Shown: in pieces, positions 455-63,600 of the stretch | How positions within the stretch are numbered: the first letter of the stretch is position 1 | How the letters are laid out: each line of letters opens with the position of its first letter | Origin: Amoebophrya sp. A120 | Lineage: Eukaryota; Protista; Dinoflagellata | Direction of reading: 5' to 3' | DNA length: 64,000 bases | Assembly: GCA_905178155.1 (NCBI GenBank) | Contig: CAJINV010000002.1 | Span: 6,428,476 to 6,492,475, forward strand | Program-made: the position numbers and the translations under genes | Notes under the pieces: generated by a model | Databases searched by the model: none | What the model was told of the DNA's origin: nothing | The model's input: only the letters and a program-made list of their open reading frames with translations

Positions 455-660
455 GCATGACAAATTTGGATTCGTAGTGTAGTGCTGTTTGAGCTAGCCC
501 AGCAGCATCACGGATCTAGTTCATCATGCTGATTGGTGGAGGACAAATTGCAAAACGCGACGTGATCATGCTTCTCGTACGTGGGGCTCCGCATGAGAAA
601 CATTTTCAGCATGCAGATTTGCATTACAGCTATGGGTTGGGGACGTTTTTAAATACGATG
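455..660. mobile_element. Introner family B, right part only (left end outside window, interrupted by nested element)
   Basis: Aligns by eye to 7408-7612; ends GGGGACGTTTTTAAATACGATG. Confidence 0.75.
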
Positions 661-3600
661 CACAACCCTTGCAGTTCATCAAGCACAACGCGAAGCACCC
701 GGCGGCGGACACCGAAAACGCACAGCAGCAATTGAACATTCAGTGGGAATGGGACGACGTGCTCGTCAACCTCGGGTCCGGGGGGACGCCGGCCGGAAAC
801 CGCCCCAACCAAAACATCCGCGGGTATGTGAACGGCTTTTCGTGGCGACCGTCCGCGGAGTACGATTCCCGGCAGGGAACCACGGGTATCCTGTTCACGT
901 TCGGCTTCCGGTTCTACGGGACGCTGCGGGCGCCGCAGGGACGGGCGATCTTTTTATCGCAACCGAGTCACGTGTGGGAGGTCGCGACCTTGTCAACGGA
1001 TGGGGGCGCGACGGAGTGCGTCGGGGTGCAGTACAACCCGGGCGTGGGGCTCAAGTGCAACACGTTCAAGTACCCGGGGTACCAGGGGAATAACTTCGCC
1101 AACGGGATTTTCTTCTTCTACGACAGCGCCGCCACGGTTGCGATCGACACGAAGATCTCCCTAAGGCTGAACAACCCGAACGTGGCGGTCAACATGTTCT
1201 GGCTGGCGTATTCCTACCAGTACATGAACGGAATTATGCGGGCGCCGTTCACCATGGAATTAGACAAGCCGATCGCGTATCAACTGCAAATATGTCTGGG
1301 TCTGGAAAAGTTGGAATCTGTATTGCGTGTTTTGCACTCCTGTAAAATCTGCATTGCGTGACCGACAAAAGCGGGAATACTTTGTCATGCAAAAACGTAG
1401 TTTCTCATGCGCATTTCACATGAGGAAGCGTCCTGAAAATTTGTCATGCTTGGCTGCGCTCAGGAGTACGCTCAGTCATCGCAACTTAGCATCACAAGTT
1501 TCCAGACCCAGACATATATGCAATGCATATCGCGACGCAGGGGTACGGCAGTGGGGACGTGATCTCCACGACCTCCTTGGCGGTCAACGAAAAGAACAAG
1601 GTGACGCTGCTCTTCCGCCCGGGAAATACGGTGATTCCGATGTCCTCGGTTTTAATTTCAGGCTATCTCGTGATACTGCCGCCGACCGGCTTCCAAGTGG
1701 ATAGGACGGGTACGGGATTTTTTATTGTTTCATTTGCTGGAATTACAATTATGAATTAGAATTGTCGTCTTTGTTGTATGTAGTGAGGTCACCGAACGGT
1801 TCTAACCGGGGAGTTTTTTTGCCATCCAGCCAGCAAAACGCCCGGCAGTTTCCAAGCGGCCGGAGGGCTTTTTGCACAAAAAAAAATTTCAATTATCAAG
1901 CGGCTCTGGCTATGTCGGCACCGAATCGCCAGCGGATTCTATCGATCGCCGCTTGGTAAAACGACGCAGAGAAGCCAGCAAAAGGGGCGCCCTTCTGAGG
2001 CGCCCGGCGCACCTAATTCCGCCGATTTGGGGCGCCCAAAAAGGAGCGCGAAAAAAACGCGCCCAAAATCAGAACAGCGAAACAGCATGGCACGGCCGCG
2101 ATTTCGCAGCATTTTGGGCTTCCGCGAAAGCGGCCGCATTTTCGCCGGTTTCAGAGCCTGGGAAGCTTTGCAAAAAGCGCCGGCTAGAAAAATAAAAACG
2201 CAGAAAAGCAAAAGCGCGCCAGACACGCAAAGCCAATCCGCATGCTATGGGCCCGATTTTTCTTCGCTTTTTGGTCGCCCCCCGTGGCACCCGGATCGGC
2301 CCCATAACATGGGGGCTGGCTTTCGGAAAGGAACATCGGGAATTTGCCGAAATTTGCGACGTTTATCAAGCGGCCGCCATACCGTGCGGCCTAACGTTAC
2401 TCACGGCGGTGTGGCGAGCCCAGAAAAAGCAACGCCGCGGCCAAGGCGACGGCCGGCAAGAAAACGCCCACGACCTCACTACCTCCGCCCCGGCGGCTAT
2501 ATTTGGTAATGATCGTTTTCATACGAGAACTCGTTCTTGTACTAGGCACATGCATGCTGCAACGAAATATTAAGCGAAATGGTGTCCATCTCCTAAACTG
2601 TCAAATACAAAACTCAGCCGCCCCCTCTTCTGTCGCGGGCTACAATACCCTTCCGTGTTCCGAGTGGCCCGATGCGGACCAGCAGCAGAACCGGTGGCTG
2701 TGCAACCTTCGGGACATGGCCCTCTTTCGGGATGCGCAGTATGCCGTGCAATTGGGCGTGATCAACCCGCCACAGCCCATGATCAACACGGCGTGGCGGG
2801 TGGAGGTGTGGCAACTGGACAGGTCAAAGCCGCTTGCGACTACCCGGGAAATCCGAGGCATTTCCATCTCCGGCACCATGGTCGCGTCGTTTGAGCCGTT
2901 TAATCAGGTGCTCGGGAACACCAACAAGATCACGTTCAAGTTCCAACCCTCCCGAGATGTCACTATCGCCGCCAACGCAACCTTCGCCATCACGGCGCCC
3001 GCCGGGTTCCAAATCAGCAAACGGTGCGCGGGCTTTGAGCGAGGAACCTTGCCGGCCGACACGGTGTGCAAGGGCACCGATGACGTCGAGGCGCGGCTGC
3101 GGTTCCCGGGGCAGAACGCGATCAAGGGCGGGGAGCTGTACGAGTTCAAATTGGACGTGATCAACCCGAGCCAAAACTTGCTGAACACGCCAAACGTGTG
3201 GCGGTTCGACACGGTGCGCCCGGACGGCATTGTGAGCGATACGACGAACTATCCAGGTATAAGAAATTTTTTGCATTGAAGATTCATCTTGAGATCATGA
3301 TGTTCATGGGTTGCTAAATAAAGCGCAAGCATGATGATATCAGATCACAAGCCTTTTTGTACGTGCATAGAGAAGAATGGAGCGCAGCAGGCACGTGCTT
3401 ATAGAACCTCTACTTGCAGCCAATAAAACTTCCACCAGGTTTTTTTCTGTACCCCTCCGAGTTCGCCTCGTTTACCGTCGTCCCCAGCAGCCGGTTAGCC
3501 GGGGTGACCAGATTAGACGTTCGCTTTGTTTCAAAGGTGGGGATCGCCACCGGCTCTTACATCCGAATTATGGCCCCGATCGGGATCAAGTGGCACCGAA

Positions 3601-6600
3601 CGAATCCAGCGTTTTCCACCGCCTCCTCCGTCACCGGGACGAATTCCATGTCCACGGAAAGTCCAGTGATTGGCTCCAGCTCCGCGACGGACAACACGTT
3701 GGATAACATGCTCCTACTCCGGTTAACGCAAAACCTGTTTGCGGACTTCGAGTACGGTGTGGCGCACAACATCCTTGTCCCAGCTCTCACGCCGATCCCG
3801 AACCGGTACTGGATTGACACGTATGTGGAGACCGGCGACCCGACGGCCGGGGACTTCGACTACATTGCCAGTCTCGGCGCGCCAGGGTTCCGGACGCAGG
3901 CGCTGTTTAATACAGAGGTGATATCAAATGTAACAATGTCTGGGTCTGGAAGATTCCGGGATTTGTCATGCTAGTCCGGCATGACTCTGAGCTCTGTATT
4001 GCGTGGCCGCAAACGGCTTCTCTTGCCTGTCATGCAAAAACGCAGCTTCTCATGCGGAGTACGCAACTCTGAACCTAACCACGGAAAGACTTGTCATGCT
4101 TGGCAGTGCATTTTTACAGTATGCGCATTTTTCCCTGACTGGCATCACAAGTTTCCAGACCCAGACATTTTTGCACTTGATAGGTGAATGCGTACAACAA
4201 CGTGGAACTCGCTTGGAACAACCCGACGACCATACAGTTCGAGACCACGACCGCGGTGACGTCGATCTTGTCCGAACAGGGCACGGTGTTGAAGCAGGCC
4301 GAGCTGTACATCCAGGCCCCCCCGGGGTTCACTTTCATCTGCCCCACCGGCGGGTGGAACCCACCCACGCAGGTCATTCCGGACGGGTTCACGAAACTGC
4401 CCACGGACGCGGAGTGTTACATCAACCACCAGGTAGCGGAGGAGCGGCGCGTGGTGCACATTTTGTTCAAGACGGTTGGTTTGGCCATGAACACGAAGTA
4501 CATCTTCTTGGTGGAAATCGTGAACGCCGCGAGTGTGAACCCGACGACCAACAAGTTCGTCCTGGAGTCCCGGTTTGACAATGTGAAAGTCGAGGGAATC
4601 ACGATCGACGGCTACGATTTGGCGAAGCCGATGGCGAACACCCGGTACGCCGCGGCGGGCATGTTGGACACGGGCGAGGACAGAACGGTCGACGCCTACG
4701 ACAACCAAGTTTCTTTTGTCATGGGCGTCACGCAAAGGATGATCGCGAGCAGTGTGGTGGAGGTACTCAATAGAATCAACGCATAGCGTTGTATGATTTT
4801 TTTCTGCTAGTAGTACTAGTAGATCTACGCTATCTTCAGGACACCCATGACGCGGCAGATTGATGTGATGTGTGTGTCGGTTTCTTCTCTCTATTCACCC
4901 CATGGAAGTATCGTTGGGATGTTGGTGCTGAATTCATTGTACTGAACAGTGGAGCTGAGTTATTTTCAGATCGCTGATGAAATGACAGTAATTGCAACTC
5001 AACATCAAAATGTGATTCAAAAGGTCGGCGGCCCGACCGGTTTCCTGTTTTCCCCGCGTTGCATCGGGCACGTGGGGTGGGCCCAGAAGTTCGCCTCTGC
5101 CGAGACGCTGGTTTTCCCCGACGTGACGGAGTGCGTCTCAATGGCCGCGACCACCGGCGAGGGAAACAAGATCCGGATCACGGTGGCGACCGCCATGGAG
5201 ATCGGAGCCTATCCGTTCTTCGTGAAGGTGCAAAACCCGAATTTCAACATTCCCACGGAAAAAAACTACTGGACGATCCGAATCTACGAACCGGGAAGCA
5301 GCGTCGCCACCATGGCAGAGGCCTGGGTGGTCGGGTTCGATATTCAGGTATGGTTAGTTTGTAGAGTGAAGAATGGTGGACGAGGTCTTCTTCAGTATTC
5401 GGTTTTTGCTTTGTTATCGCGTTTGAAATGCAATTTCATTTTGTGTGTTGTGATGCAGTCGGTCGGAATCAATATCAATTGTATGCAAAATAAAAATATC
5501 TAGTGCCTATGTACTTATCATTTACAGGTCGTGAAAGACGTGGAGGTGTTCCCCTACAACCCGGGCAACGGCATTCCCGGCGAGGCCGCCCCGAACCCGC
5601 TGGACATTCGGTTTAAGCTGACCACGCGATTACCCTCGGTCTCCGAAGAAGCTAATGGAGCGCTGATATTGGTCGTGCCGCCGTTCGGGTTTCACTTCCC
5701 AAGTGTGTGCCGCACCTTCATGACGGACCCATACGCGGGGGATGCGACGAGCCCGTACATGGCTATTCCGTCCACGACAATTTGCAATCCGCCGGACTTG
5801 TACACGCCGGAACTGATTAATCTTTACTACAGGCTGGGACACCCGAACTTCTACCTGGAATTCGGACAGACGGAAACGGCGGTATAGAACAGCTACAATG
5901 ATGAATACCAGCTTTTTTGTTATTCGTTTCGCGAGGTGGAGGTGAATGAAGATCGGAAGTGGTTCATCTGTCACGGCACTTACTCACAATGAACTAGCCG
6001 TGCTCTACTTGTTGATAGAAAATGCCTGCTTTCTTCATTCAACATTCATATATGCAACAATCGGTGAACAATCTGCATATCAAAAGTTTCAACGATCGGC
6101 TACAGATTTCCGACGACATCCGTTGGGAGATTTATTTCCGGGAGGAACCTCCAGGCACGATTACGCGGATGTTCCGGGTGCGATCTGTGCCTGCCGGCGG
6201 GCCAGCGTACGCCAGATTAGTCCGCGCAGGGTACATCTTGGAGTCGATGACCTGCTTCCCCGAGGCCACGGGGGCGAACGGGGTGACCAGGCAAGAGGAC
6301 TGTCTGAACGCGGGGAAAAATTTCGCCGCCCTTGTGGAATCGAACTGCGGAACGATCGACGGACAGGTTGCGCTGGGCGCGACGCCGGCGATTCACGAGG
6401 CCTTTCTGAACAAGTTCGCGGATCGGGAAGTCGCGTTGGACCAAATTTCGGACTGCATCGCGCAGAAGGTGTGGAAGATCCACTTCGACGAGTTGTTGGT
6501 CCCCGTGGAGATGCGGCTCTCCGGCCCGGCACTGATTTTGAAGTTGGGAGAAAACACCCACATGGTGGCGGAGCAGCTGTACGCCTTCCGCGTGATGGTA

Positions 6601-9600
6601 GAGAACCCGATGCAGACCTTCGACAACGTGCACGATTTAACCCGGTGGTGGACCATTGAGACCCGCACGATGCCGAAGCCCAGCGTAAACAAGCGGTCGC
6701 AGATCAAGGACCGATTGGACTTGAATTACAAGGTGCACAGTTTCGCGGTGTACCCCAGGATCTCGTTGTTTCAGCTCCAAACCTTGAACTACATTGGGCA
6801 AAGCGAGACCGATGTGAAAATCTCCTTCGACATCATTTCTGATTTAGCCCCGCAAGCGACCATTCTCATCACCGCCCCCACGGAGTTCCAGTTCCGCGTT
6901 TGGCGGGGCGAGAACTCGCTGACTTTCGGCGACCCACCGTTGCCCAGCTACCCCTGGAACCCGCCACGCGATGGGTCGACCGGCCTGTTTTTGAACGTTT
7001 TACCGGACGGCACGGCGCACAGGCCCTGCATCTCGCCGTCGATAAGTGCGGCGGACTACCAGGTGATGGACCAGTTGTTCCCCAGGAGTGCGATCAAGGA
7101 CATCACGCGGTTGCCCGAGTACGTGTCGTGTGTCGTGATCAATGCGTACCAAATTATGATCACCAACACGGAGCCCGTTCGTGGCGGCCGGACTTTGATG
7201 GCCGGACCGGTGTATGAGTTTCTGATTGATGAAGTAGTGAACCCGCCGCGCACACCCTTCACCGCTTCAAACCTGTGGCGGATCGTTGCGAATACCACTA
7301 CCGCGCTCGGGCAGGAGGTGTGGGCGACGTATCCTGAGTAAAAACATCCCCACCCCATAGTCAAGATGGGGAATCTGCTAGACAAATCAACAAGCTTAGG
7401 TTGTTGCGCATGACAAATTTGGGCTCCTAGTGTAATGCTGTCTACGTCGTCCAGCAGCATCACAAATCTAGCCTATAATGCTGATAGATTGGAGCATTAC
7501 AAATTCCAAAACACGACTTGGAAATGCTTCCCATGGGTCTCCGCATGAGAAACATTTTGAGCATGCAAATTTGCATGACAGCTATGTGCTGGGGACGTTT
7601 TTACATAGGATACGACAGAGGGGTGGGTCATCTTTCCGGAATTGGCCATCACGCGAATCTCCAGCGACAACCCGGCCAATGGGCTGTTTACGACGTTCAC
7701 GATTCAAGTCGGAGTGTTGACCACAGTCCCCGGCCAGGGATCGATTCTGCTTCGCGCCCCGCGGGACGACTTTTACTTCGGGCCACGACTGGCGTTTGAC
7801 GGACCGCCGCCGGATCTGCTGAACCCGATCCCCCGCGCGTCTGGGGGCAGCCCGCCGAGGCCGGCGAAGGGCGGCCCGGACCTGCCCTGCACCATCGAGG
7901 CGCCGCAGCCGCAAGGGAATCTGCAGTTTATCTGCCCGATAACCAAGACGCCCTGCGAAGAGGTATGAACATAGGATTTGGGCCGTTTATCGTTTTAGTG
8001 TAGAAGTTGTAAGTTGTCTAAGTGCACTCTTACGTACAAGAATCAATTTGATGTTCTTGACAAGGGGGAGTATCGTATGAAAGATGAAACATAAATTACT
8101 AGTAGTAGCATCCTGGTGTCTACTGTTCCTTTTGTTGAACAAATCACAGAAAGCGCGGCTCGAGGCCTTGGACCTCGGGCGTTCTGCGAAGGACCAGCTG
8201 TATGCGCAGGAAATTCAGGCCCTGGAATTTCCCTGTCAGCAAGTGACCGCGGACTGCGCGTCGCGGCGGTACGACAAGTTGTTCTCCTGCAAGTACCGAA
8301 CGATTTTGAAGGAACAGGTAATGACGCCCGCGGAGCTCCAGGCAAACCAGGACCTCGTGACCGCGTGGAACTCGGCGAACACCAAGCAACTGACCTGGGA
8401 ACCTTTCGAGGCCCAACTGGAGATCACGCTCGCGACGGACATTTCGATGAAGCAGGACCAGGTGTTGACATTCTTGCTCACCGGGTACAACACGCTGTAT
8501 CGGAATTTCACCGCGTGGCAGAACGAATTTACGTTTTCCACCAGAAACGCGGACTCGGGGAAGACGACCCTGGATGAGCGAAAAGGCGTGCCCGGCTTCA
8601 AGCTTTTCGGTGTGGTATGGATTGCAAAAATGTCTGGGTCTGGAAGAATCCGAGTTTGTCATGCTAAATCTGATCGATGCAAAAATCTGTATTGCGTGAC
8701 CAGCAAAAGTCCTCAGTTTTGGTTACCAGAAGCCGGCATTTCTCATGTGGACTTAGCATTGCATAGCCTTCTCAAAACTTGTGATGCTAGAGCCCACATT
8801 CCAGACCTTCTGGGTCAAGCAAAATATGGATGACAAACCCGGCAACATTCCAGACCCAGACATTTTTGCATTTGATATGTGGTCTACGTCAGCAAAATCG
8901 ACGCGCAGGAGACGAAAGTGTCGAACACCTACAACCGGGTGGAGATCACCTTCCGGCTGACCAATCCGGTGAAGCAACGAGGGCTAATTATTCTGAGGAA
9001 AAACATCCCCACCCCAGAGTTGCCATGCAAATCTGCATGCCAACAAAGTTGCTCATGCGAAGCCCCATGAGAAGCTATTTCTAGTTGTGTTTTGGGATTT
9101 GTGATGCTAGGAATAGCATGATATGCTAGATCTGTGATGCTGCTGAACTAGCTAAACAGGTTTGCACTACGAGGCCAAACTTGTCATGCGAAGCAACCAA
9201 AGTTGGCTGATTTGTCTAGCAGATTTCCCATCTTTATTCTGGTATGGGGACGTTTTTACTCAGGATATTAATCCGGATCCAATACCCTACGAAGTTCGAA
9301 CTCCCGCCGCAGTCCGGCGGCGGCGCGGGAACCAACACGATTGATGTCAGTGAAACCGTGCCGAGAAAGGCGAAGCGGAGCCAGAGGGGGAACATCATCG
9401 AGTTAGACAGTGAGGACGAGGACTTCCCAGCTGGGTTAGACATGATGATCACGATCACTTTGTCCAATCCCGACATCTCCCCCGGGCCATCGGAGAACAT
9501 CTGGATCTTTGAGACGTTTGAGGTGTCGCCACAAGCACCAACGGGAACGACTCCGCCCGCCTCAGCGCTGACCATGATCGATTTGAACCGAGACGTGCAG

Positions 9601-22125: not shown

Positions 22126-22699
22126 TCGTTGATGAAGAGGATAAGTCGAAGAGAGTTTGTTTGCGCTTCGAGCAGAAGGTTTCGAAGACAAAAATGTTGC
22201 GACGTATAATTTGGTGGAAAAAGTATCTGAGTACTACGGCAGCATCGAATGTCAACAGAACATCGGCCTCGACGAGCGTATCAGATTCATCCTCGGCGTG
22301 TGCTTACTGTGTGATGTCGGAGGGGGTGACACGTGGGAGAATATCCAGCGTTCCAGTGTGAACCCATTCCTGTATAAGTACAACCGAACCACTTTCCTGT
22401 GTCGAATCAAACGAGAATAATTGTCCTTCCCTGTGGTCTTTGCCACGACCAAATCGAAAAAGCAAAGGTCTACCTTGACAACTAGTGATCTTCTTGTGAC
22501 TGTAAAAAACAATCTTCAATAGATTGATTTACAACAAAACTACAACGCCCTGTGCTAGTTCCCCTGCTGTTTCGTCTATTTGTAACCCTCGGAAAGTTTT
22601 CCAGTCTTTTTATTCGGTGCTGTGTGAAAACAGGTGCTCTCCCTCTTGCTCATTCTTTTGTTGGCCCGTTGTTGCCCTAACAAGTCAAGTGGCCAGTTT

Positions 22700-46203: not shown

Positions 46204-46209
46204 GGGACC

Positions 46210-46473
46210 TATCAAATGCAAACATGTCTGGGTCTGGAAGAATGCAAATTTTTGGCATGGTGTTTTTGCATGACACAGAGGGTCGGTCATGGAAGCCCTC
46301 GCATCACAGATTTCGAGAACGTTCCGTGATGCTTCATCCGCATGACAAATGCACCTGTTTCGTGACAGAAAATGGGAGCCTTTTGCGGCATATGCATGAG
46401 AGAGTTGTGCGTGTTGTGGAATTTGCACAACAAATTCGGATCCTTCCAGACCCAGACATTTTTGCATTTGATA
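46210..46473. mobile_element. Introner family A in putative 3' UTR
   Basis: TSD GGACC/GGACC; starts 6 nt after the inferred stop codon. Confidence 0.9.
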
Positions 46474-51995: not shown

Positions 51996-52809
51996 GTACC
52001 CCTTCCTCAAAATGAAAACATTGATCATTGGGCTCTGATATATAAATGCTGTGATGTGGTCGTGCTTGATTTCGAATAAGTAGCGTTTTGCGCAGTAGAT
52101 TTTTTTAGCATGCTTTCGAGTGGAGATTCCTAGACTTCTCAAGTGCCAAGTGCTAAAAATCCAATATGATGTACGCAGACGTCGACCGCACTCTTGGTTG
52201 CAGCTGTTCTGTTTGAGTACGATCCTGGCGCCGACGACGCGAATCAGTTTCGCTTAGGAATGACGACAAAGGCGAGGGATAAGAACTCATTTGAGTGTTT
52301 GGTTTCCGAAGATCAAGATTTACCACAAGTTGCAGCTACTTGAGATCCCCGGCAGTCACCAGCAGCTGGTGTTGTGATGATACAATTTTTTTCAGGAGCA
52401 GATCATCTTCTCGCTCCTGTGGATCGTCGATTGCCTGGCTGTAAAGAACTATAAAGCCAGCATCTGAAGAAGAAGATCCTCCAATGGCAGTGATTTCCAT
52501 AGTGTGCTGTCGTCGTATTAATGCTGCAAATCGAGAAGTTACAGCCTCACGAAGTCTGACAGGTCGATATTGACATCATTTTTCCCCCAATAATGTAATT
52601 TTTTTTTCCGACTCTGAAACGTTCAGAAAAGGACCCATCCCGTCGTTTCTTCCTTTTTACATTTCTAGAAGATTATACCTCATCAGATATAGCTGGTGTG
52701 GTCCTCAGTACAACTAAAGTCCGATCACCTCCTCATCAGAACACTCCGCAAGTTTATTTCCAAGCTATTTTTATATTTCTTTACCTCTAGTACTAGTACA
52801 TTCAACCCC

Positions 52810-55800
52810 ATGGGGCGCGGTAAAGGCGGCAAGGGCAAAAAGGGCGGCGGTGGGGGCGGCGCTTTTTCGGAGACGCCTGCACTGTATGTGGATTTTCGCT
52901 TCGATACTCCCTCGGCGCACCCGCCCACTATCAAAGGCTACTTCTACCTGGCGGGGCGCAAGCGCTACCCGGAATTTCGCGCGTACCCGTACGTACTGCG
53001 GCCGGACGACAAGTGTCTCACACCCGAGCATCACGAGCCTATCGTCGGCAATTTTGACACGCCCGAGGAATTTTACGACAGAAAGTGGCAAACCCGCGTC
53101 CTCTGGACGCTGTACGACTACAGCAAGGGAGACTTGAATTACGTGCCGATCCTGTCGTCTTACGAATCAAGGCTTACTGTCCGTGTAGAGGACGCGAGCT
53201 GGGAGGAGTGGGAAAAAAGGAACCCGGATTCGCCACGCAAATTATCCTGAGCAAAAGCAGGGTCCCCATCGCATCCTGGAGAAGTCAAGATGGCAAATCT
53301 GCTATACAAACCAACAACTTTTGGCTGATGTTGCGCATGATAAGTTCGGGATCGTAGCAAAGTCGTCTTTATCTGGTCGTGCAGCAGCATGTCAGATGCT
53401 TAACGTCGTGATTCAAGCATGACAAATTTCATTTTCAACAATAAAACACGACTGGAAAAAATAAATGCCTCTCGTGGGGCTCCTGCGCATGAGAAACATT
53501 TTCGGCATGCAGATTCGCATGACAACAACAAGAACTCTGGGATCGTGGGGACGTAGTTTTTACTCAGGATGCAGGTACTCCGTCGATTACTTTTCGACGA
53601 CCAGCGGACAAAACAAAATTCCTCGCGGCCGGGAAGAAAAGCTGTCCCGGAAGTTGTCCGAGGTCTTGCGGCACCGGGCGGAACATTTAGGGTTGCAGAT
53701 CGACGCCGCCGGATTTGTGTTGATTTCGGACTTGCTGAACTGCAACGACTACCCTCTGCAAATGTTGTGTCGCACTAGTAAAAATCGCAGTCATGCAAGA
53801 CAAATTATCTCTTTTTCGAGCTAAATCAGCGTGAAAAAGTGCATTTGTTACTGTTATGTTGGTGACCTGATCATGCTGATTTGTTGTACTGTAATTACCA
53901 ATAGGACTAGTATTTGGGGCTCGCGCCGCCGTGTTGGCACAACGGCGCGGGGATCTGCGCATAACAATAGAAAAAGCAGTACTGCAGCAACTAGAAACAG
54001 TTCGAAGAGGCTTGGTTGAAGAGCTGGAGCGTGCTTTCTCTGGGGCTGACTGTTCCCGGAAGGGCGGCCGACGCACTAACGCCGCGCGATGATGGCAAAC
54101 AGCTTGATGGCAACAAAGTACAAAAACAAAAAGGAAGAGCACGCGTAGCCAGGAACATAAAATGAAGAAGAAATGGCGGCCAGTAGAGCGACCGGCCCAC
54201 CAACTGCAGCCCAACGCCTAGCGCGCCAGATCCGGCCGGCCTCTGTACTGCCAAAAGCCGGGTCAGGTAGAGGTAGATAAGGGCACGCACTTCCGCTTGG
54301 TGCGCGGCAAGGTAGCCGTGCCTCCTACCTTCTAGGAAATGTAAAGCAGACCCGTGCCGGGCGGCGTCCCCCCTTTCTACTTCAGCTACCCAGCAAGCGC
54401 AGGCAGCTAGGGCGAGAACGCGAGCCCTTGGGGTCCGCAGGTAGGCTCTTTTTTTAGGTGCGACTCCTGGCCGCCGCGCTGGTACTCGTCGTAGCAGGTG
54501 GCCGGCCAAAGCGCTGCAACCTGCCGAAGGCGCCGGCGCCGCTGCACGGATGTAATCTCTGTGGCGGCTGGCATCTGTTGCCTTCGCATCAAGCCGCCCC
54601 CTGTGCGCCGAGAGTTTCTCTTGCGTTTGGTCTTGCGCTTGTTGTGTGCATGCTTTTCCATCCGGGCTGCCCATCGGCGAGGCTTGGCCCGATACCCTGT
54701 AGCAAGTAGCAGGACCACGCAACTGCTGGCGGTTGCCTCCCAACAAATCTAACTAAGAGGCACGCCTGCCAGGGGTGTTTTTGAGTTTTACTCTCGGCGC
54801 CGGCGGCCACACCTCAAAGCATGGAGGCAACAGCCATGCGGCTGGCTGTTTCTGATGTGTTAGCCACAGCCCCATTGCGGTTGGTTCGTTGTTTCTGTGC
54901 TCGGTTTCCTAGGCAAGCACCAGGGGCAGCAGATCGCCCGGGTAGCTGCGGTTGCTCAGTGTCAAAAACGATAAAAAAAGGCTTTTGGCTGTCGAGCTGT
55001 AGATGCTCGCTATAGGCGGAAGCTGTAGAGCTTAGGCTCTAGAGCATCACCAAACAGCTGTAGAGATTCAGCTCTAGAGATTGAGCTCTACAGGTTTTCG
55101 AGCTATAGAGGCGCTCGCCCTAATCGTTATCAATCTTTTTTCGCAGTAGCGTGGTGATTCGCCAAAAAAAATTAGAAAAAAAAAGGTCATCTCTAGAGAT
55201 TTGATCCTTCTTTGCCCAGATTTGAGCCTAGTCTGCACCACAGTAGCATGCAGATTTCAGAAACAAAGCAAGTAGCCTTCTTTGAGCCTTCTTTGGTTCC
55301 AGGTTTGACCCTAGTTGCTGCAAGTACTATAGTTCTCTTGGCTAAACGAAAACGATACAACTTCATCAATTCATAACGCTTTCAAGCACTTCGCCCAGTC
55401 GTTGGTGGGGCAACACGCGGTCGGCAAGCAGGAGATCGTTTGGCTGGTGAAGGCGAACCAGAAGCAGCGCTTATCAAATGCAAAAATGTCTGGGTCTGGA
55501 AGAATGCAACTTGTGATGCTGCATTTGGATTCCAAAACAATCTGCATTGCATGAGTACCAAAGGGAATGCAATTTTTGCTCCGCCGAGAAGGCATTTGTC
55601 ATGCGGAATAGGCATCAGGAAGCCCTCAGAAAATCTGTATTGCTAGGGTATGCATCACAGACATCATGGCTCACGCAAAACGTGCATGACAACTGTCAGA
55701 ATCTTCCGGACCTAGACATTTTTACAGTTGATAGCGCTTTGAGTTGGACAATGCTTCCGATCCGGCCAAGATCCGCTGCACCCAGGGCCATTCGGTGAAA

Positions 55801-56595
55801 GCGGTCGACGTGGCAATGACGGGAGAATTGATCAAGGACGCAGTGCATTACTTCCAACTGATAAAAAAGAAGGGGAGCAGCGACAAGAACGACAACAGAG
55901 ATAAAGATGGCGACGTGGCGATGTTGTTGAACCCCGCCGCGCCCGGCGTTAGTCGGTCAACCCAGAAGGATGAGATTTCCACAGGAGCAAGTTCAACATC
56001 CACGTTTGGAGGGAACAATTCCATCAGGGCCCAGGTCGAAGCGCGAAAGAGGGCGGTGATGGAGAATAAATCTGGAAATGATTTGAAAGTCAATACTGTT
56101 GGAGCATCATCCGCTGTGGAGGTTGGGATGGCGTTGGAAGATAATGCAACAAGTGGACGAATTGGTACTGGTGCTGGATCCAGTTCCAGTGCGACTTCCA
56201 GTTTGTTCTCTCCCGCTAGCCGAAACAACACAGCGAAAGTCGTCCATGGCACGTTCCCGAAATCGCTACAAAAAATCCTCGAGTCGGGCGGCTTGTCGAA
56301 AATGGAGCGCAACGAAATCCACTTTTGCGCCTCCGCCCCGGAGGACGGGAGTGTTATGTCGGGGATGCGACAGGAAGCCAGCGTGGTGATCGAGGTGGAC
56401 CTGGAGAAATGTTTGAAACACAAGATCAAATTCTACTACGCGAGCAACGGCGTCATTCTCTCTCCCGGGGAGGAATCGAGTGGGAAAATCGGCCCGGAGT
56501 ACTTCTTGAATGTGTACGACCGGTGGACGAAAAAGACGCATCCGTTCTGGACGCAATTCCGTGAGAGGGAAGCGCAAGCAGTGAGAAATAAGTAG
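52810..56595 (+). CDS. TPT1: RNA 2'-phosphotransferase Tpt1/KptA with N-terminal extension (~517 aa)
   Basis: Exons 52810-53242,53577-53749,55381-55471,55739-56595. LSRKLSEVLRHRA..GLQIDAAGFV, NQKQRF, IRCTQGHS, VHGT..GLSKMERNEIHF, SGMR, FYYASNGVILSPG. Confidence 0.93.
53243..53571. mobile_element. Introner family B, aged
   Basis: TATCCTGAGCAAAA / TTTTACTCAGGATG; TSD CAAAT/CAGGT. Confidence 0.82.
53991..54746 (-). pseudogene. Possible degenerate Ty1/copia-like reverse transcriptase fragment
   Basis: Minus-strand translation has, in copia order, HRGRLDAKA (KARLVAKG-like), KKRAYLRTP (D..AYL-like), LIYLYL and LVGRSLYW (L.KSLYG-like); heavily decayed. Confidence 0.35.
54993..55110. repeat. Array of about 8 AGCT[C/G/A]TAGAG motifs
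   Basis: Seen directly; near-palindromic unit with 10-20 bp spacing. Confidence 0.75.
55472..55733. mobile_element. Introner family A
   Basis: TSD GCGCT/GCGCT; splits the conserved KQRF motif of Tpt1. Confidence 0.94.
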
Positions 56596-57671
56596 TTGTC
56601 ATCGTACGGACCTGCAAATGTGGAAAGTGCTTCACCATGTATGTATTCGAAAATGTACGTCGGGAAGGGGAGAAGCAACAGCAAATCTTCTCTTTGTTTT
56701 CTACAAGAGCGACTTGAAGGATGAACCGTAGCCGTACCAGTACCTTCAAAACACTGTGGATAATAAGAAATCATCATGCTGATGAAAATTTGAATTGCTG
56801 CCGTCACTTACATTTGTTCAGTTTTCAATGGCGTATCTTGCTCGTTGTGCATGTTGGATCATCCGGTTCGATCAACACTCGAAGCAGCAGTGATGCAATA
56901 GGATCTAGAAGTAGGAGGTCTAACTGGACAGTTGGAGTTGGTCAAGTATTTCTGTTGGGCGGGCGGCTACTGGCGACACACGATGATGAAGATGAAGATC
57001 TACAGAGGCAGTTCATGTTCTGATTTCAGAAAAAAGCTCTCCTCTGTTTCCAACCTGACGAAGATCTTTTTCCACCATTGTGGTCCAGTGAAGTACATTG
57101 ATTCTCTACTGCTTGAAGTAGACGTTTTCTTTGCAATTGAAAATGTTGCTCTGTGCTGCCTTTTTTTCCGACAGAACCCCCCTCCTGCCAAAGAATTTCA
57201 TCTTTGATAGTGAGGATCCTTTCATATTCATCGCTGATGCTGCTCTGGTTGTGTTTCGCCTTCGCGATGTGTATCTTTTCTTTTCGAAAAAAATTACTTC
57301 TACGTATGATCCTGATGTTTTCAGTTTATTTCCGATCTTCATCAACATTGTGAATGACCAGTGCAGGCAGGGACCACGACTCCACCTCGATCTATCGAAG
57401 TAATTTGTTGTTCTTGCATGCATTCTGCAGTTGTTTTTCCGCGATGCACTTGCGCGATTGAATGACAGCTGTCGCTACTTAGCCGGAAAGACAAAACCGA
57501 TCGTAGCTCCTTTTATTGATGCATTTTCTACTACGTCTGAGAGCGACGAGGGATCGTTTTTGATTGTTGAACACGACCGAAAAGAACCGCCTATCTCTTT
57601 CTTTTTGTGTGGAATACCCCGCCTGACCGTTACAACTGCTTGAGCCAAAGAACTTGGTGCAGCCTGCAAGA

Positions 57672-60600
57672 ATGGCTCGAAAAAGAACGCCGCAACTGCC
57701 TCCCCGCAGCAGAACTGCGAGCCTCGCAGTTCTGAGCCTGTATTTGGGCGCTGGCGCGGGAATATTTTTTTCGACGCCAACAAGTGCGCGGAGAGCTGCA
57801 GGTGCGGGTGGGACGAAAGCGAATACAAAATTTCTGGCAAGCAGGACCACACCGAACATCAAAGGCGAGCAGCTGATATTTACGACTAGGGGAGGTGGAC
57901 CACGAGGGGTGGAAGCTCCTGCAGCGTTGGAGGCACATGTTGAAACCCCATATAATTACCAGATTGCCAGCCAACCCGTTCCACCTTACAACTCCGCGGA
58001 TCTTCAAACTGCCGCTTCCTATGCTCCTGCTGCCTCCTCGCAGTCGCAGGGACAAGAAGGAAACTTGTTCGAGGACGTGCAAGAGGCACGACGAGCGATG
58101 GGAAAAAGATTTTCTGCGGCTCCTGCCACAAGAACGTCCGCCTTTCAGGCCAGGCCGCCACGTGGCGACTTGACGAAGATTCTATTGCAAAAACCTAGCA
58201 ACGAATACCACCTCCAATACATGGCCCACGTGATGCAAAGTATGCAGCACGCGCAAAAAGAGTACAACAATGTCGCACGCGCACAGGCGGAACACGAACC
58301 AGGGCGGGACATCAAGGGTTCCGCTTCGGGTTCGGGGACGCAACCGACACAGCAGCTCGTCCACTACGACAAACAAGATCGCGCATCTGCCAGTAATGAT
58401 CAAACGCAAGGACAAGAAAATCAATCGACTTCTGAAGGAAGGAATGCAATAACGACATCTCCACCAGAACTTGAAATTTCCGAAGAGGCAGACCGCCACG
58501 GAAGAACCTACGCCATGCAGCTTCCAGACACGAGTATGCAGTACCTGGAGCAGCAGTTTGAGAAGCTGTTCCTCGAGGAGCCGAAAAACGAGATGTCTGC
58601 GGCAGAGATCGCGACAAATCGTCAGGTGCTCCTGAATTTCTTCGCGAACAAGGACGAGCTTTTCTCTTCGCGCGCACAGATGGAGCATCTAGATCACGCG
58701 TTGCGGGAAATTTTTTTCCGCTATTGGCACGTGGTGCAGATGGGAAAATCTCTTAATATTGTGAGTGATGTTGAAAGAACAGATACGGACGAAACACAAA
58801 CAGCTCTGGAGGTTGATGACGTGGAACAAGTAGAAGACGAAGCGGGAAATATGAAATGCCAAACACCAATTATCACCACCGCAGCTGCTGCAGCAACCGA
58901 CTCAGTAGCGAAATTCGACCAGATTCCCGCCGGCGATTTGGCCAATCTGGAAGCGATTTTGCGGGTGTATCGGGCGAAACAGCCGGACAGGTTCAGAACT
59001 TTAGACGACCAGGTACGGCGGACGGTGACGCGTAACGGCAAAAGCTGGGATTACTGGTCCGGGATGCTGGCCTTTGTGCATCACTGGCGAAAGATCGCCA
59101 AAGTTCCTTGCAGTCATCTTGCGTCGAGTCAGCAAGCAAAAGCAAATACGAAAACAGGAACAGCAGTGTTGGCACGATCTCGAGATGCGAGCAGTTTTTT
59201 GACGGGAAAAATTAACCTGGTTGAAGATCCTGGTCGGGGCCGTGCGGATGAGGGCTCGCCTTCGATGCGGGAACGTATGGATTGCAAATATGGCCCTGGG
59301 CGGTCTGGAAATTATATGCAAGGTTCTACTTTCTCATGCGGATTTTGGATGACCCACCGTGTCATAATGTTCACAGGGCATCTTGAAAGGGCTTCTGCAT
59401 GCCTATCCACCGATAAGAAATGCCCTTGTCTGCCGCGTAACTAAGTAGCAAAAACGCGGCTGCCTTTGCTGTTCGTGCAAGAATGCAGATTTTCATTTTT
59501 GTAGTATCGGTATACAAAGGGAAGGCAAGGCAGCATCACAAGGTTGCATCTTTCCAGACCCAGATCGATGTTTGCACATGATAGGACGCGGAGAATCTGG
59601 TTCTTCCACTTCGTTCCCGACGGTGACGAGAAGGCGGCTTGATGGCGCGGCTTCCTCTGTGCGCCAACAAGAAGATGGCTCTGGTTCCTCGTCCTTCATC
59701 CCCAAGGACGATGTAGGTGAGGAATGCGAAGAAGCGAAGTCACAGACTCCACTCGCTGTACTAGCCAGCGAGAATCTCGTTCTCGACGAGAAGGAGCTAC
59801 AGGTTCGTGAAAATTATGATCCCGCGCGCGTGGAAGATCCGCTACCAAAGGACCACCCCGAGGAACAAGACGATAAATCGAAATCCTCTGCTACAGTAGA
59901 AATTTCATCAGAAAGAGAACCTTCAGAGGAGGACCAGAAGAACGCACCATCCGAACAAGCGTTTCCGGCTTTGGAAGCCGCGTCTAAACCGTCCAAAAAG
60001 AAGAACAAGGACGGTGGAGGTGGAGCTCCGGGTGCGCGAACTCTGAGGACCCCTTCCTCGACGTCATTCGACAAAGCAAATCATTCGACAAAGCAAGGCT
60101 TCTCGTGGTCTGAACGGTTGCAGCACAGCATTGTGGGCCCCCAAGGTGGGGGCAGTGCTAACGCTGACAAGCCGAAAGGGGAGCAGCAGACGGGGAAGAA
60201 CGGGGAGATGAAAAAGTCCGGCGGCACTAGCCCACCGGGCGCAGCGACAGAGAAGAGTAGTGGGAAGCAGCAGACAAGCAGTGGCATTGCAGATGGCAGC
60301 GCTAGTACAGAAGGAGACAAACCGCCGGGAAAAACTTTTACTACGAAAAATGGGATCGAGAAGATGAGCGGGGCTTTGACAGCCGTTCCTTCCTCGTCCC
60401 CCACTCCGATTGCTGCTCGTCCTCCAGAACGGGCTGGCACCAACGCGTTGTACACAAAACGCACCGAGCAATTGCGCGCGAAAGCCCGTGCGGGTGTGGT
60501 CCACGCTGGGGGGCTCGTGCCGGGGATGGTCTCTACCGTGCCGATGGACCACATAATTCCAAGCGGCGTTGCACACGACTTCCACGGAGATGATGCCTCA

Positions 60601-63600
60601 CCTTTATCCGCTGGCATTGTAGAGGACTTCGCAAATGGAAATACAGCATCAAACATCGGTTTCGGCACTAGTGCCACCCCCGGGGGCCAGGCCTTTTACA
60701 GTCAAGTGTCGCCCGATCGCCATGGAGTTGCCCTGCCTTTCGGTGAGGAGGGCTCATTGGAGGCCCGGCAGGGGGTTGCGGCCACGCCGGCAACCAATAA
60801 AGTGGACATCCTGGTCGAGAATTTTAGAGCAGGGTCAGTTTGCCAGCTTCCACACGCTATTTCCGGCAGTACGGCCGTGTATTCAAGTAGCTCCCGGTGC
60901 AGCACACCTAGGTTGGTGGAGAAGGCCATTCTTTTACCAGAGAGCGAAGAACAGGAGGAGAAGAATTGCGGCGGGATTCGTCTGGATGATCAAGTTGGTG
61001 AGATCGAAAATGACCGGAAAAAGAGCTGGGACAAGATGAACCTGAAAAAGAACAAGGGATCTGTTGAAAAATCTGTTGCGGCGGTGAACAAAGACACCAG
61101 TGTTGGTCGTTTAGAAGCTGCGGATGATGATGTTCACGGCGAGAAGAAAAACCGGAGGCGGGAGATCATTGCTGATCCTCCGTATCGTGACGGTGTTGAA
61201 GGAGAGAAGATGGAGCTGGATTCGCAGCCCGAGGCCGAGCCAGAAGAACCGGATGAGGCACAATTTTTGGCTGCGTCTGCTGCCCTGGATCCTGCGACGA
61301 GTCAAAATGCTGTTGTAGTAGTCCCAACAGACCACGAGGCTTCGGCTGCTCAGGAAGTAGAGACTCCTCTTCGGCCTGATGATATTACAGAAGAAGCCTT
61401 GATGGCAACATCAAACATTCGTCAAGAAGATGCCGTGCACGATACCTTGCAGCTCCCCGCGACTTCTGTGAAGAACACGCAGCGCATGCTATTCTGTGTA
61501 AAAATGTCCCCACGCCAGAGTTGTCATGCAGATTTGCGATTACAGGAACATTTGTAATGCGCAGATCCAAGAGAGGCATTTTCAATCGTGTTTTGGTATT
61601 TATAATGCTGAAACAGGATGAGCAGATGATTTTGTGATGCGGTTTCCGTTGCTACCCTTCACTACACTACGGACTGCAACTTGCCATGCGTGGCTCCCAA
61701 AACTTCTGGATTTGTGTTGCTAAGTTCCCAACTTGACTAAGTGGTGGGGACGCTTTTACAGATGATACATGCTGGAATCTTCCATGCGACTCGGCTGTGC
61801 CATCACCGACGTATTGCTGCGCAAAGAGCAACAGGCATCCAAGAAAAAAACTGGGTTAGTGTAACTTTCTTTGGCTGATAGCATCACAAATTTGCTTTAC
61901 ACGACGGAGAAAACCTGTCGTGCGTGGTTTGTAAGGGAAAACACACATGAAAAGAGGACTGCGTGGCTGTCTGGCATGACAGGCGTAACTCTGTATGCAT
62001 GTTCTGCATCACAGATTTACACTTACACAGTTTTTTTCATGCATAACAAGACCACGCCGGCGATGAAACCTACAGTTTGCACCAAGCCTGGCAGGAACTG
62101 GAGGCCGCCGAAGACGGACCCGTCTGCGAAACGGAGGTGTTGGGGCTTGTTTCCACTGGTCCTTGCGACCACGCCGGCTTCCACATTGAAGGGCTGGACA
62201 ACGATGGAGAGGAAAATGCCGCGACCACTCCAGGAGCAAGAGGATCGAAAGTTGTTTCGCAGCAAACCACGACACCGAAAACGAAAGGCAGAGCGAGCCC
62301 TGGTGGAGCTGCCGGGGGTAAAAAGACCAAAAAAGAGAAGCGGAAAATGAAGAAGGAAAGTTTACTCCAGGCCGGTGCAGCAGCAGACGATGATGTCGAA
62401 TTGACAGGCACTGCGGCGTCCTCCGGTTCCGGTTGTGCAACAACTAAAAATTTGGATTTTTTTCCAACCGGTTGTAGTAAGCGCTTTTCGACGTCGTCTT
62501 GTCAAGAAGAAGGTCAGGACGTTGACCTCCACGAGGAACAATCGCTCCAGGAAGCAATAAGGTTGCGGCCTGGTCGGCAGAAGGACACGGTCCGAGCAGT
62601 GAAACGCGTGATCGAAGAGGAGACGGCCGCGTTTTTGGACAACATCCAGGAAAGGGAGAAGCAGGCCACCAAGAATCTGGTCAGCGGCATGGCCGTGCTG
62701 GAGCTCGCTATTCGCCGCCCTGATTTCTCCTTTCTGGTTAACGCAGAATTTGCGAATACAACCGCAGATGATGGAACAAACGGAAACACAAATGACAATA
62801 AGGCAGGAGGAACATCTTCAGATGCGAATGCCACAGCAGGTCCAAAAGTTGACTTGATCGCGCAACTCGGGACGAAGTTGGAATTTTACACGACCTACCA
62901 CAAGAGTTTAGAAACGGTGTTGGAAGTGTGCCGCGCGTTTTCGAAGAATAAACAATCGGCGGAGAAGAAGGATTTGTGCTTTCAAACGTACAAGAAGCAC
63001 ATGGAAAACTTCTTTTTTCCGGATCCCGTGGTTCTAGCAACGGGGGACAGAGCCGCGGTCGAGGCGGAGATGGAGCGGAAAATGCCGTTTTTGGAGCGGG
63101 GAATCACCGCTATAACGAATGATATAGAGAAGAAGTTCGGGAGACTGCTTTTGCAGCAGATGGTAACATATGGATTGTAAAAATGTCTGGGTCTGGAAGA
63201 ATGCAAGATTTGTGATGCAGGTTTTTTATGACCCATGAGGTCTGGAATGCGAGACCCAGCATGACAGATTCTTTGAGGTCTTTATCATGCCTTTCCTGCA
63301 TGAGAGACTCCCTCTCAACTTGGTCAAAAGCGAACAGCTTTTGGTACTCACGCAACACAGATTTTTGCATCATTCAGATTTAGCATCACAAGTTCTAATC
63401 TTCCAGACCCAGACACTTTTACACTTGATATAACATCCGGCTCGGTGCCGGACGCCGTTGCCGCCCTCTACCACGAACTGAAACAGAGCGCCACGAACGC
63501 GGTCGCCGGGGAGATGAAGAATGTCTCAGCTCCCGAAAAATGCGGTCGTGCAACGGATCTTTCGAATAAAACTACGGATAGTGCGCCGGGGGAAGAAAAC

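What the first reader, a model, noticed from the sequence alone, without database searches (positions are those of the whole stretch)
455..63430. Window-wide system of ~45 TAT...ATA TIR elements with 5-bp TSDs acting as precisely removable, mostly non-GT-AG introns
Seen: 9 of 10 genes are interrupted. Deleting each element plus one TSD restores the frame, even within conserved motifs (Tpt1 KQRF, MFS FGRKHLG, BCAT). Sliding the junction through the TSD gives GT-AG for only 4 copies (3922, 13761, 36997, 51326), GC-AG for 2 (12974, 21044) and GA-AG for 1 (46210). About 38 have no canonical reading, and six TSDs contain no G at all (CTAAT, TTTCA, CATAC, CCACC, AACCC, TAACA). Established: similar IR/DR introners were reported in Amoebophrya, and to my knowledge their removal mechanism is unresolved. 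Inference: junctions are defined by TIR pairing plus the direct repeat, not by U1/U2-type signals.
Basis: partly seen in the sequence, partly recalled or inferred. Interest (0 to 1): 0.9.

Follow-up and report, generated by a model that had tools for sequence, protein, structure and literature searches.

The report
Fixed cutting rule for Amoebophrya introners
These are the already published transposon-derived introns of the algal parasite Amoebophrya A120, and contigs that appear to be RNA show them cut out at one fixed position (one base before the element's TAT, four bases after its ATA) whatever bases lie there, a rule not found in the papers searched that likely reflects a relaxed host spliceosome.

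Summary
Observation confirmed. There are 43 complete TAT…ATA elements with exactly 5-bp target duplications, in 10 of 11 genes and all in coding frames. Shuffles give none. The window matches Amoebophrya sp. A120 (BCAT exon 100% identical), so these are the introner elements of Farhat 2021: the system is known.

RNA-like contigs support precise removal for 29 of the 32 copies in the stretches tested.

What is new: nine copies with mismatched duplications allow only one cut position. The intron is N-TAT…ATA-NNNN, and two copies fix this exactly. The published work calls these borders variable or unknown.

The direct repeat is not needed at the junction. In this register the 5' end reads N-U-A-Y, the same as +2..+4 of all 17 GT-AG introns here (GUAY). 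The 3' end needs no AG.

Best reading: a U1-less host spliceosome with a free +1 base, and an acceptor set 4 nt past the hairpin's terminal AUA (inferred, about 55%). Main rival: a Euglena-like nuclease/ligase (about 30%). A branch-point A at −7 and selection toward AG were tested and not upheld. The scan noted one similar intron before, in another dinoflagellate.

The parts
1..655 (.). Partial element (family of 7330/45547), right end at 655, with a nested insert; no left end found in the window
660..14281 (+). Gene 1, 5' part missing, >2380 aa, 15 elements and 8 GT-AG introns
   Evidence: one 11-kb contig in X1 and in X3
1278..1529 (.). Element, TSD TCGCG/TCGCG
   Evidence: frame only
3922..4182 (.). 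Element, GGTGA/GGTGA
   Evidence: RNA skips 266 = 261+5
7330..7612 (.). Element, CGACG/CGACA; at most 4 left-TSD bases kept
   Evidence: RNA pieces end 7324 and start 7613
8616..8877 (.). Element, TGTGG/TGTGG
   Evidence: left side seen; length sum
8989..9267 (.). Element, CTAAT/TTAAT
   Evidence: length sum
9836..10061 (.). Element, CGTCA/CGGGA
   Evidence: length sum
10095..10623 (.). Element with nested ~250-nt insert, CGGTT/CGGCT
   Evidence: length sum
10813..11074 (.). Element, CGGTC/CGGTC
   Evidence: length sum
11116..11422 (.). Element, TTGAG/TTGAG
   Evidence: length sum
11866..12173 (.). Element, CGCCT/CGCAT
   Evidence: length sum
12221..12429 (.). Element, GCTGA/GCTGA
   Evidence: length sum
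12672..12921 (.). Element, GCAGT/GCAGT
   Evidence: length sum
12974..13191 (.). Element, AGGCG/AGGCG
   Evidence: length sum
13371..13595 (.). Element, TGGAA/TGGAA
   Evidence: length sum
13761..13968 (.). Element with decayed stem, GAACG/GAAGG; GT-AG in the fixed register; 4 or 5 bases kept
   Evidence: RNA piece starts 13973; length sum
15775..17309 (+). Gene 2 (end of frame uncertain), 2 elements
15838..16110 (.). Element, TGCTA/TGGGA; 4 or 5 bases kept
   Evidence: RNA piece ends 15836
17027..17289 (.). Element, GGGCT/GGGCT; filled site
   Evidence: no RNA row shown
18030..18180 (.). Duplicated segment holding the empty site (one GGGCT) of element 17027
18219..22125 (+). Gene 3, GYF-domain protein, 3 elements
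18333..18541 (.). Element, TTTCA/TTTCA
   Evidence: RNA piece starts 18542
20623..20884 (.). Element, ACTGC/ACTCC; 4 or 5 bases kept
   Evidence: RNA piece ends 20621
21044..21347 (.). Element, GGCCA/GACCA
   Evidence: frame only
25611..27522 (+). Gene 4, the only gene without an element (one GT-AG intron)
27647..30509 (+). Gene 5, 1 element
28339..28641 (.). Element, CATAC/CATAC
   Evidence: frame only
31606..37467 (+). Gene 6, MFS-like transporter (label from recalled motifs; two exons gave no Pfam hit), 4 elements
31831..32159 (+). Candidate decayed intron, GT…ATA-CCTG
   Evidence: frame only; not RNA-tested
33033..33340 (.). Element, CCGAT/CCGAT
   Evidence: frame only
34960..35211 (.). 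Element, CAAGG/CATGG
   Evidence: frame only
36632..36942 (.). Element, TCGGC/CCGGC
   Evidence: frame only
36997..37318 (.). Element, GGTTG/GGTTG
   Evidence: frame only
38392..43117 (+). Gene 7, 2 elements
41613..41764 (.). Element, AAAGC/AAAGC
   Evidence: frame only
41935..42275 (.). Element, TTGAG/TCGAG
   Evidence: frame only
44661..46473 (+). Gene 8, 4 elements
45321..45470 (.). Element, CCACC/CCACC (no G)
   Evidence: loose end at 45470 reads the spliced upstream exons
45547..45826 (.). Element, AAGCC/AAGCC
   Evidence: joint skips 285 = 280+5
45886..46137 (.). Element, AACCC/AACCC (no G)
   Evidence: joint skips 257 = 252+5
46210..46473 (.). Element, GGACC/GGACC
   Evidence: joint skips 269 = 264+5
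48657..51996 (+). Gene 9, branched-chain aminotransferase, 5 elements
48679..48990 (.). Old element, TAG…ATA, CCCAA/CCCGG; fixes the register exactly (intron 48678-48994, AT…CG)
   Evidence: joint 48677>48995, 0 letters fit both sides, X3 only
49111..49313 (.). Element, GTCAA/GTCAA
   Evidence: joint skips 208 = 203+5
50187..50555 (+). Decayed intron without a clear TIR or TSD that fits the rule: A-TAC…ATA-CACG
   Evidence: joint 50185>50555, 1 letter fits both sides
51024..51173 (.). Element, AATCG/AATCG
   Evidence: joint skips 155 = 150+5
51326..51514 (.). Element with decayed stem, TGAAG/TGAGG; GT-AG in register; 4 or 5 bases kept
   Evidence: joint 51324>51519
51604..51814 (.). Element, GGGGC/AGGCC; CT…GC; 4 or 5 bases kept
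   Evidence: joint 51602>51819
52810..56595 (+). Gene 10, Tpt1/KptA RNA 2'-phosphotransferase, 3 elements
   Evidence: PF01885
53243..53571 (.). Element TAT…ATG, CAAAT/CAGGT; TT…GG; 4 or 5 bases kept
   Evidence: joint 53241>53576
53750..55375 (.). Old element TAC…ATA with a ~1.4-kb nested insert, ACGAC/ACGCT; fixes the register exactly (intron 53749-55379, CT…GC)
   Evidence: joint 53748>55380, 0 letters fit both sides, X1 and X3
55472..55733 (.). Element inside the Tpt1 KQRF codons, GCGCT/GCGCT
   Evidence: joint skips 267 = 262+5
57630..64000 (+). Gene 11, runs off the window, 4 elements
59276..59583 (.). Element, GAACG/GGACG
   Evidence: frame only
61490..61767 (.). Element, CATGC/CATGC
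   Evidence: frame only
61836..62045 (.). Element CAT…ATA after G (GC donor in register), ACAGG/ACAAG
   Evidence: frame only
63169..63430 (.). Element, TAACA/TAACA
   Evidence: frame only

Best explanation
These are the non-autonomous TAT…ATA inverted-repeat elements of Amoebophrya sp. A120, flanked by 5-bp duplications in coding exons and missing from RNA-like contigs in one fixed register (intron = N-TAT…ATA-NNNN), likely cut by the host's U1-less spliceosome with relaxed ends. Shown: insertion duplicates 5 bp; removal takes the element plus 5 nt, split 1+4 across the two duplications; any base is accepted at +1 and any dinucleotide at the 3' end; both orientations of a family occur in genes on one strand. 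Inferred: the element's TAT supplies +2..+4 of the host donor consensus (GUAY); the long end-to-end stem brings the far end close; the acceptor is taken 4 nt past the terminal AUA instead of at an AG. Because 1+4 = 5, the messenger is scarless at any target. Inferred: a transposase encoded elsewhere spreads the elements (none found here).
For: Register: 7330 allows at most 4 left-TSD bases kept; 13761, 15838, 20623, 51326, 51604 and 53243 allow 4 or 5; 48679 and 53750 allow only 4. Four is the only value that fits 9 of 9 informative copies. An intron found only by RNA (50187-50555) fits N-TAC…ATA-N4. The gene 1 model reproduces all 8 contig coordinates tested. In register, the window's 5' ends are GT 12, CT 12, AT 10, TT 8, GC 1, with 14 different 3' dinucleotides. 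In 247 oriented copies from other contigs there is no enrichment of G at +1 (79 vs 71 at the mirror position) or AG at the end (21 vs 16). For a spliceosome: 17 of 17 GT-AG introns start GTAC or GTAT; +2/+3 change less often than their mirror positions at the 3' end (2 vs 10 in 21 oriented variants); both confidently oriented CAT starts follow a G and so give a GC donor (61836, L001); two copies with decayed stems are GT-AG in the same register. Published: all 9 top A120 splice pairs in Table S4 of PMC7789003 are NT-NN and all 9 for A25 are TT-NN, where repeats start TTA; U1 was not detected while U2, U4, U5 and U6 were found in A120; a U1-bearing Amoebophrya has mostly GT-AG introns (PMC12005148).
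Against: No intermediate (lariat or circle) was seen, so the machinery is inferred. The register rests on nine copies, two exact, and on contigs that are only guessed to be RNA, from two samples of one study; the 48679 joint is in X3 only. The 24 copies with perfect duplications cannot show their register. The 5'/3' asymmetry is modest: Fisher p=0.03 for 21 variants, 0.14 for the 18 from the termini-blind scan, 0.016 with five window copies added; those outside copies have no RNA check. The window's excess of mismatches at TSD position 4 (12 of 25, p=0.002) did not replicate (20, 13, 12, 17, 7; p=0.13). Weaker stems in GT-AG copies also did not replicate (p=0.36, n=6, in a scan that favours strong stems). 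The GT-AG introns here do not end in ATA-N4, so the 3' rule is not shared with them. A spliceosome accepting any +1 and any 3' dinucleotide departs far from known chemistry (general knowledge).
Confidence: 0.55

Rival explanations
1. A separate, non-spliceosomal nuclease-and-ligase system reads the end-to-end hairpin and cuts 1 nt before and 4 nt after its terminal 3-bp motif, as proposed for Euglena nonconventional introns (closest to the first reader's view).
For: Strong stems in most copies (40/40-nt duplex -19 to -60 kcal/mol for 42 of 43 elements, against -6 to -15 for 9 GT-AG introns). The two outermost pairs are intact or G-U in every RNA-supported copy. No need for G, GT or AG. Precedent: the fixed-spacer code N3CDG…CH'G N5-6|R and circular release in Euglena (PMC12501133); RNase III or tRNA-type routes proposed for diplonemids (PMC12621601).
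Against: The 5' end equals the host donor at +2..+4. End constraints look asymmetric in transcript orientation, where pairing predicts symmetry (modest). Copies whose termini are predicted unpaired, or whose stem is as weak as that of ordinary introns (53750, -12.9), are still cut in register. GT-AG copies use the same register.
Confidence: 0.3
2. A spliceosome with a ruler from a branch point: the first A of the terminal AUA (-7) is the branch nucleophile and the 3' cut is measured from it.
For: A at -7 in 43 of 43 window copies and in 50187. Fixed branch-to-3' spacing is known in Giardia, Trichomonas and Stentor (PMC6679479, PMC9505925).
Against: With the better-validated strand call, 3 of 13 changes at the 3' end are A(-7)>G (L001, L002, L059); the first result of 0 of 9 was withdrawn. 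The bases upstream of that A do not form a U2-type consensus. GT-AG introns here show no fixed A at -7.
Confidence: 0.1
3. The gaps are reverse-transcriptase jumps across hairpins between direct repeats, and the elements stay in the messenger.
For: Hairpin plus direct repeat is the classic setting for such artefacts (general knowledge); only assembled contigs were seen.
Against: Two joints have no repeated letter at the cut. One register fits 9 of 9 copies. Contig depth inside 53750 is 0-1.5 against 12-24 on the exons. BCAT aligns to the A25 protein across the junctions only when the elements are removed.
Confidence: 0.02
4. The elements are excised from DNA in part of the cells rather than from RNA.
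For: They have the ends of DNA transposons; the library type of X1 and X3 is not on record, and the joint table of the DNA-like run was cut (720 rows not shown).
Against: The same contigs also lack ordinary GT-AG introns; the 8 long pieces shown for the DNA-like run X5 are unspliced, and most end 25-30 nt inside elements.
Confidence: 0.02

Closest known systems
Introner elements (IEs) of Amoebophrya sp. A120 (Farhat et al. 2021, PMC7789003; Gozashti et al. 2025, PMC12130899)
   Same: Same organism (BCAT exon 100% identical to an A120 protein); inverted repeats starting TAT with an A-run after seven bases; direct repeats of 3-5 nt; about 240 nt; no transposase; RNA-supported non-canonical borders.
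   Different: The paper reports no clear splice signature and variable or unknown borders. The 2025 dataset gives TSDs of 2-5 nt and conflicting 'carry/co-opt' calls (first 21 of 58 A120 rows seen). Here the duplication is always 5 bp and the cut is always 1+4.
Nonconventional introns of Euglena (PMC12501133)
   Same: Co-dominant non-GT-AG introns with paired ends, direct repeats and a fixed spacer between a 3-nt motif and each cut.
   Different: The motif is CDG/CH'G with spacers 3 and 5-6 and a purine after the cut; it does not resemble the host donor; hybrids are rare. Here the motif is TAT/ATA, spacers are 1 and 4, the 5' end mimics GUAY, and no purine rule is seen.
MITE-type introners of Micromonas, Aureococcus, Symbiodinium and Florenciella (PMC9860276, PMC11282704)
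   Same: TIR plus TSD elements that become scarless introns; enriched in genes; some take part of a splice site from the TSD.
   Different: Those carry or co-opt GY/GA and AG sites, so they need suitable targets. These need neither: only 6 of 247 outside copies are GT-AG in register.
Non-canonical introns of Fritillaria borealis (seen only through the review PMC11282704)
   Same: TIR/TSD-derived non-canonical introns reported to be removed by the spliceosome.
   Different: Preferred ends AG-AC/AG-AT and an exonic TAC target; here the ends are NT-NN with no target preference found.

Membership tests
Amoebophrya A120 introner elements | Host is Amoebophrya sp. A120 | tested here: met
   BCAT exon 100% identical to P0001, named A120; 78% to the A25 protein
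Amoebophrya A120 introner elements | Inverted repeat starting TAT, seven looser bases, then an A-run | tested here: met
   TAT in 40 of 43 left ends; A at positions 11-13 in 37-43 of 43; definition
Amoebophrya A120 introner elements | Direct repeat of 3-5 nt at the borders | tested here: met
   exactly 5 nt; empty site
Amoebophrya A120 introner elements | Removed from transcripts with non-canonical borders | tested here: met
   (contigs guessed to be RNA)
Amoebophrya A120 introner elements | Repeated in families | tested here: met
   five multi-copy families in the window; 290 copies in other contigs, up to 97.5% identical
MITE / non-autonomous TIR DNA transposon | TIR, fixed-length TSD, short and non-coding | tested here: met
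MITE / non-autonomous TIR DNA transposon | Cognate autonomous transposase that assigns a superfamily | tested here: inconclusive
   no transposase Pfam hit in 6 ORFs from inserts and GC-rich gaps; the 972-nt copy in L068 has no frame above 86 codons; no whole genome held
U2-type spliceosomal intron | GT/GC donor and AG acceptor | tested here: not met
   2 of 43 GT-AG in the RNA register
U2-type spliceosomal intron | Donor +2..+4 matches the host consensus | tested here: met
   41 of 43 read N-T-A-Y; 17 of 17 GT-AG introns read GTAY
U2-type spliceosomal intron | Branch-point A and lariat; dependence on U2/U5/U6 | not testable with these tools
   A at -7 is not invariant; no lariat data
Euglena-type nonconventional intron | N3CDG…CH'G N5-6|R signature | tested here: not met
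   motif and spacers differ
Euglena-type nonconventional intron | Release as a full-length circle | not testable with these tools
   contigs cannot show excised forms

The most novel reading that the evidence does not exclude
Amoebophrya A120 runs a second splicing code, N-U-A-Y…A-U-A-N4, on a spliceosome that has lost U1 and no longer checks the first base or the last two bases of the intron. The transposon's own end hairpin stands in for U1 and for AG recognition, and may present the A at -7 for branching. Any TAT-ended element with a 5-bp duplication is therefore a perfect intron from the moment it lands, in either orientation and at any exonic target. A25 meets the same donor rule with TTA ends.
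Probability: 0.35. Interest if true: 0.85.

Novelty: already known. Interest (0 to 1): 0.6.

Why it matters
How A120 removes its many non-canonical introns has been open since 2021, partly because direct repeats hide the true borders. A fixed 1+4 register turns 'no signature' into a short code (N-U-A-Y…A-U-A-N4). That code can be checked genome-wide with existing reads, it tells lariat or circle sequencing where to look, and it lets the genome be re-annotated: the public BCAT protein reads into element 51604, which RNA shows is removed. If the spliceosome does this, it would be an extreme case of active-site relaxation tied to U1 loss, and would explain how one transposon type can fill coding exons without harm.

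Tried and rejected
1. Invariant branch A at -7: supported by a local strand call (0 of 9 changes, p=0.002), contradicted by an ORF-length call, and withdrawn after a regional strand call that was right for 40 of 40 confident window copies gave 3 A>G changes. Five of 26 variant copies were dropped there as not confidently oriented.
2. Selection toward G or AG at the intron's last base: 12 of 25 mismatches in the window, not replicated in 190 copies or 247 copies.
3. Weaker stems in GT-AG copies: seen for 13761 and 51326, not in six outside copies.
4. Target-site preference for G at +1 or AG at the end: none.
5. Transposase or autonomous copy: none found. The TIR pattern had 0 matches in viral contigs.
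6. No listed holder is on record as RNA. The raw-read RNA run X8 laid only 84 reads, on element parts, and gave no information.
7. No whole genome is held. Roy et al. 2023 is not held. The figures of PMC7789003 (Fig. 3, S19-S25) could not be seen and may show part of the register. Supplement files 13-14 and 37 of 58 A120 rows of PMC12130899 were not read.
8. Loci shorter than 700 nt were left out of the outside scans.

Full report
OBSERVATION. Scans for TAT…ATA pairs with inverted arms and flanking repeats, followed by a BLAST of the clear copies against the window, gave 43 complete elements and one partial copy ending at 655. The flanking repeat is exactly 5 bp: mean identity 0.88, 24 of 43 perfect, against 0.17-0.31 for other lengths. 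A strict scan finds 31 pairs in the window and none in 30 shuffles. A duplicated segment near 18030 holds the empty site of element 17027 with one copy of the 5-mer, which shows that the repeat is made on insertion. The copies fall into at least five multi-copy families, and both orientations occur. All 11 genes lie on the + strand; 10 are interrupted. Removing each element plus 5 nt opens every frame. All 43 lie in modelled coding frames, which make up 61% of the element-free DNA (p about 7e-10; most gene models are mine).

ORGANISM. A BCAT exon is 100% identical to a protein named Amoebophrya sp. A120 and 78% to the A25 protein. Farhat et al. 2021 (PMC7789003; abstract, passages, sections 10, 11, 12, 16 and supplement passages read, figures not visible) describe A120 introner elements with TAT-starting inverted repeats and 3-5-nt direct repeats. 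The system is therefore known, in this genome.

RNA. No listed run is on record as RNA, but contigs of X1 and X3 lack ordinary GT-AG introns and so behave as spliced RNA. In 1200-21199 one 11-kb contig in each run skips 3922 (266 = 261+5) and, in X1, 7330 (288 = 283+5). A model that removes 14 elements and 7 GT-AG introns reproduces all 8 contig coordinates tested, including the block of 12 elements between 8610 and 13973. In 45255-56700, 11 elements appear as joints of length+5 and a twelfth as a loose end, including the G-less repeats CCACC and AACCC. The public A120 BCAT protein reads into element 51604, whereas the RNA joint and the A25 protein show it removed.

REGISTER. Let k be the number of left-repeat bases kept in the RNA. 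Copy 7330 gives k<=4. Copies 13761, 15838, 20623, 51326, 51604 and 53243 give k=4 or 5. Copies 48679 and 53750, mismatched at positions 4 and 5, give k=4 with no letter fitting both sides. Only k=4 fits all nine. The intron is N-TAT…ATA-NNNN. An intron that I had not recognised as an element (50187-50555) fits the same rule with no clear stem or repeat. In this register the 43 copies start GT 12, CT 12, AT 10, TT 8, GC 1 and end in 14 different dinucleotides; 2 are GT-AG.

OUTSIDE COPIES. They hold 290 distinct copies, 227 with perfect 5-bp repeats, up to 97.5% identical to window copies. Their flanks score as coding in 193 of 249 cases against 239 of 622 background tiles. In 247 copies oriented by a regional coding model there is no preference for G at +1 or AG at the end, and 6 are GT-AG. 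Among 21 confidently oriented copies with altered termini (5 of 26 dropped), changes at repeat positions 1, 2, 3 are 1, 1, 6 at the 5' end and 7, 3, 3 at the 3' end (Fisher p=0.03; 0.14 for the termini-blind subset). This is modest support for +2U/+3A being read as sequence. An earlier, stronger result with an invariant A at -7 was withdrawn. The window's excess of changes at the last intron base did not replicate.

MECHANISM. Shown: 5-bp duplication, scarless removal, 1+4 register, freedom at +1 and at the 3' dinucleotide. Inferred: the host spliceosome. All 17 GT-AG introns in the window start GTAC or GTAT (9 RNA-supported, 8 from frames), and 41 of 43 elements read N-T-A-Y in register. Both confidently oriented CAT starts follow a G. 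Table S4 of PMC7789003 lists only NT-NN pairs as predominant in A120 and only TT-NN in A25, whose repeats start TTA, although the authors report no clear signature and call the borders variable or unknown. U1 was not detected in either strain, while a U1-bearing Amoebophrya has mostly GT-AG introns (PMC12005148, passages). The 3' site is the weak link. Strong stems are typical and likely bring the ends together, but copies with unpaired termini or a very weak stem are still cut 4 nt after ATA, so the terminal motif seems to matter as well. I give the relaxed spliceosome 0.55, a Euglena-like nuclease-ligase 0.3, a branch-point ruler 0.1, and artefact or DNA excision 0.02 each.

COMPARISON. Membership in the A120 introner class is met on every feature tested. 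The elements are MITE-like, but no transposase was found. They fail the GT-AG test for U2 introns and the Euglena signature (PMC12501133; abstract, passages and section 7), though Euglena is the precedent for a fixed-spacer code. Other papers seen as passages only: PMC12130899 (plus 21 of 58 A120 supplement rows, which give TSDs of 2-5 nt and conflicting calls), PMC9860276, PMC11282704, PMC12621601, PMC9505925, PMC6679479, PMC11453091. Roy 2023 was not held; Henriet 2019 was seen only through the review.

NOVELTY. The system is already known. I found no statement of the fixed register in nine searches. It is implicit in Table S4, may be partly visible in figures I could not see, and subscription journals are not covered. 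It makes an open question directly testable. Interest 0.6.

Noticed in passing
window, all elements: An 8-nt motif family (GCATGACA and variants, both strands) occurs 126 times, 123 inside the 43 elements and 2 more in the partial copy; 39 of 43 elements carry it, across families. Candidate transposase- or splicing-factor binding site.
   Followed up: partly
window 10335-10594 and L068:5017-5988: Nested inserts inside elements are flanked by direct repeats that contain the GCATGACA motif; the L068 insert ends in an A-rich run. A second mobile element may target this motif. A related insert lies at 329-463.
   Followed up: partly
window 51604-51814: The public A120 BCAT protein (P0001) reads into this element and ends there; RNA and the A25 protein show it is spliced out.
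   Followed up: yes
window, non-coding DNA: No element was found in about 20 kb of intergenic DNA and ordinary introns; all 43 lie in coding frames, and outside copies lean the same way. Suggests exon targeting or fast loss elsewhere.
   Followed up: partly
window 53750-55375: A 150-nt-family element expanded to 1626 nt by an unidentified insert is still removed as one intron in exact register; two ORFs in the insert gave no transposase hit.
   Followed up: partly
window 52810-56595: The Tpt1/KptA 2'-phosphotransferase, an enzyme of tRNA-type splicing, lies here and is itself interrupted by three elements; probably coincidence.
   Followed up: no
Likely other repeats.
   Followed up: partly
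window 46474-48268: RNA-like contigs run about 1.8 kb past the stop of gene 8, up to the region before BCAT: a long 3' UTR or a separate transcript.
   Followed up: no
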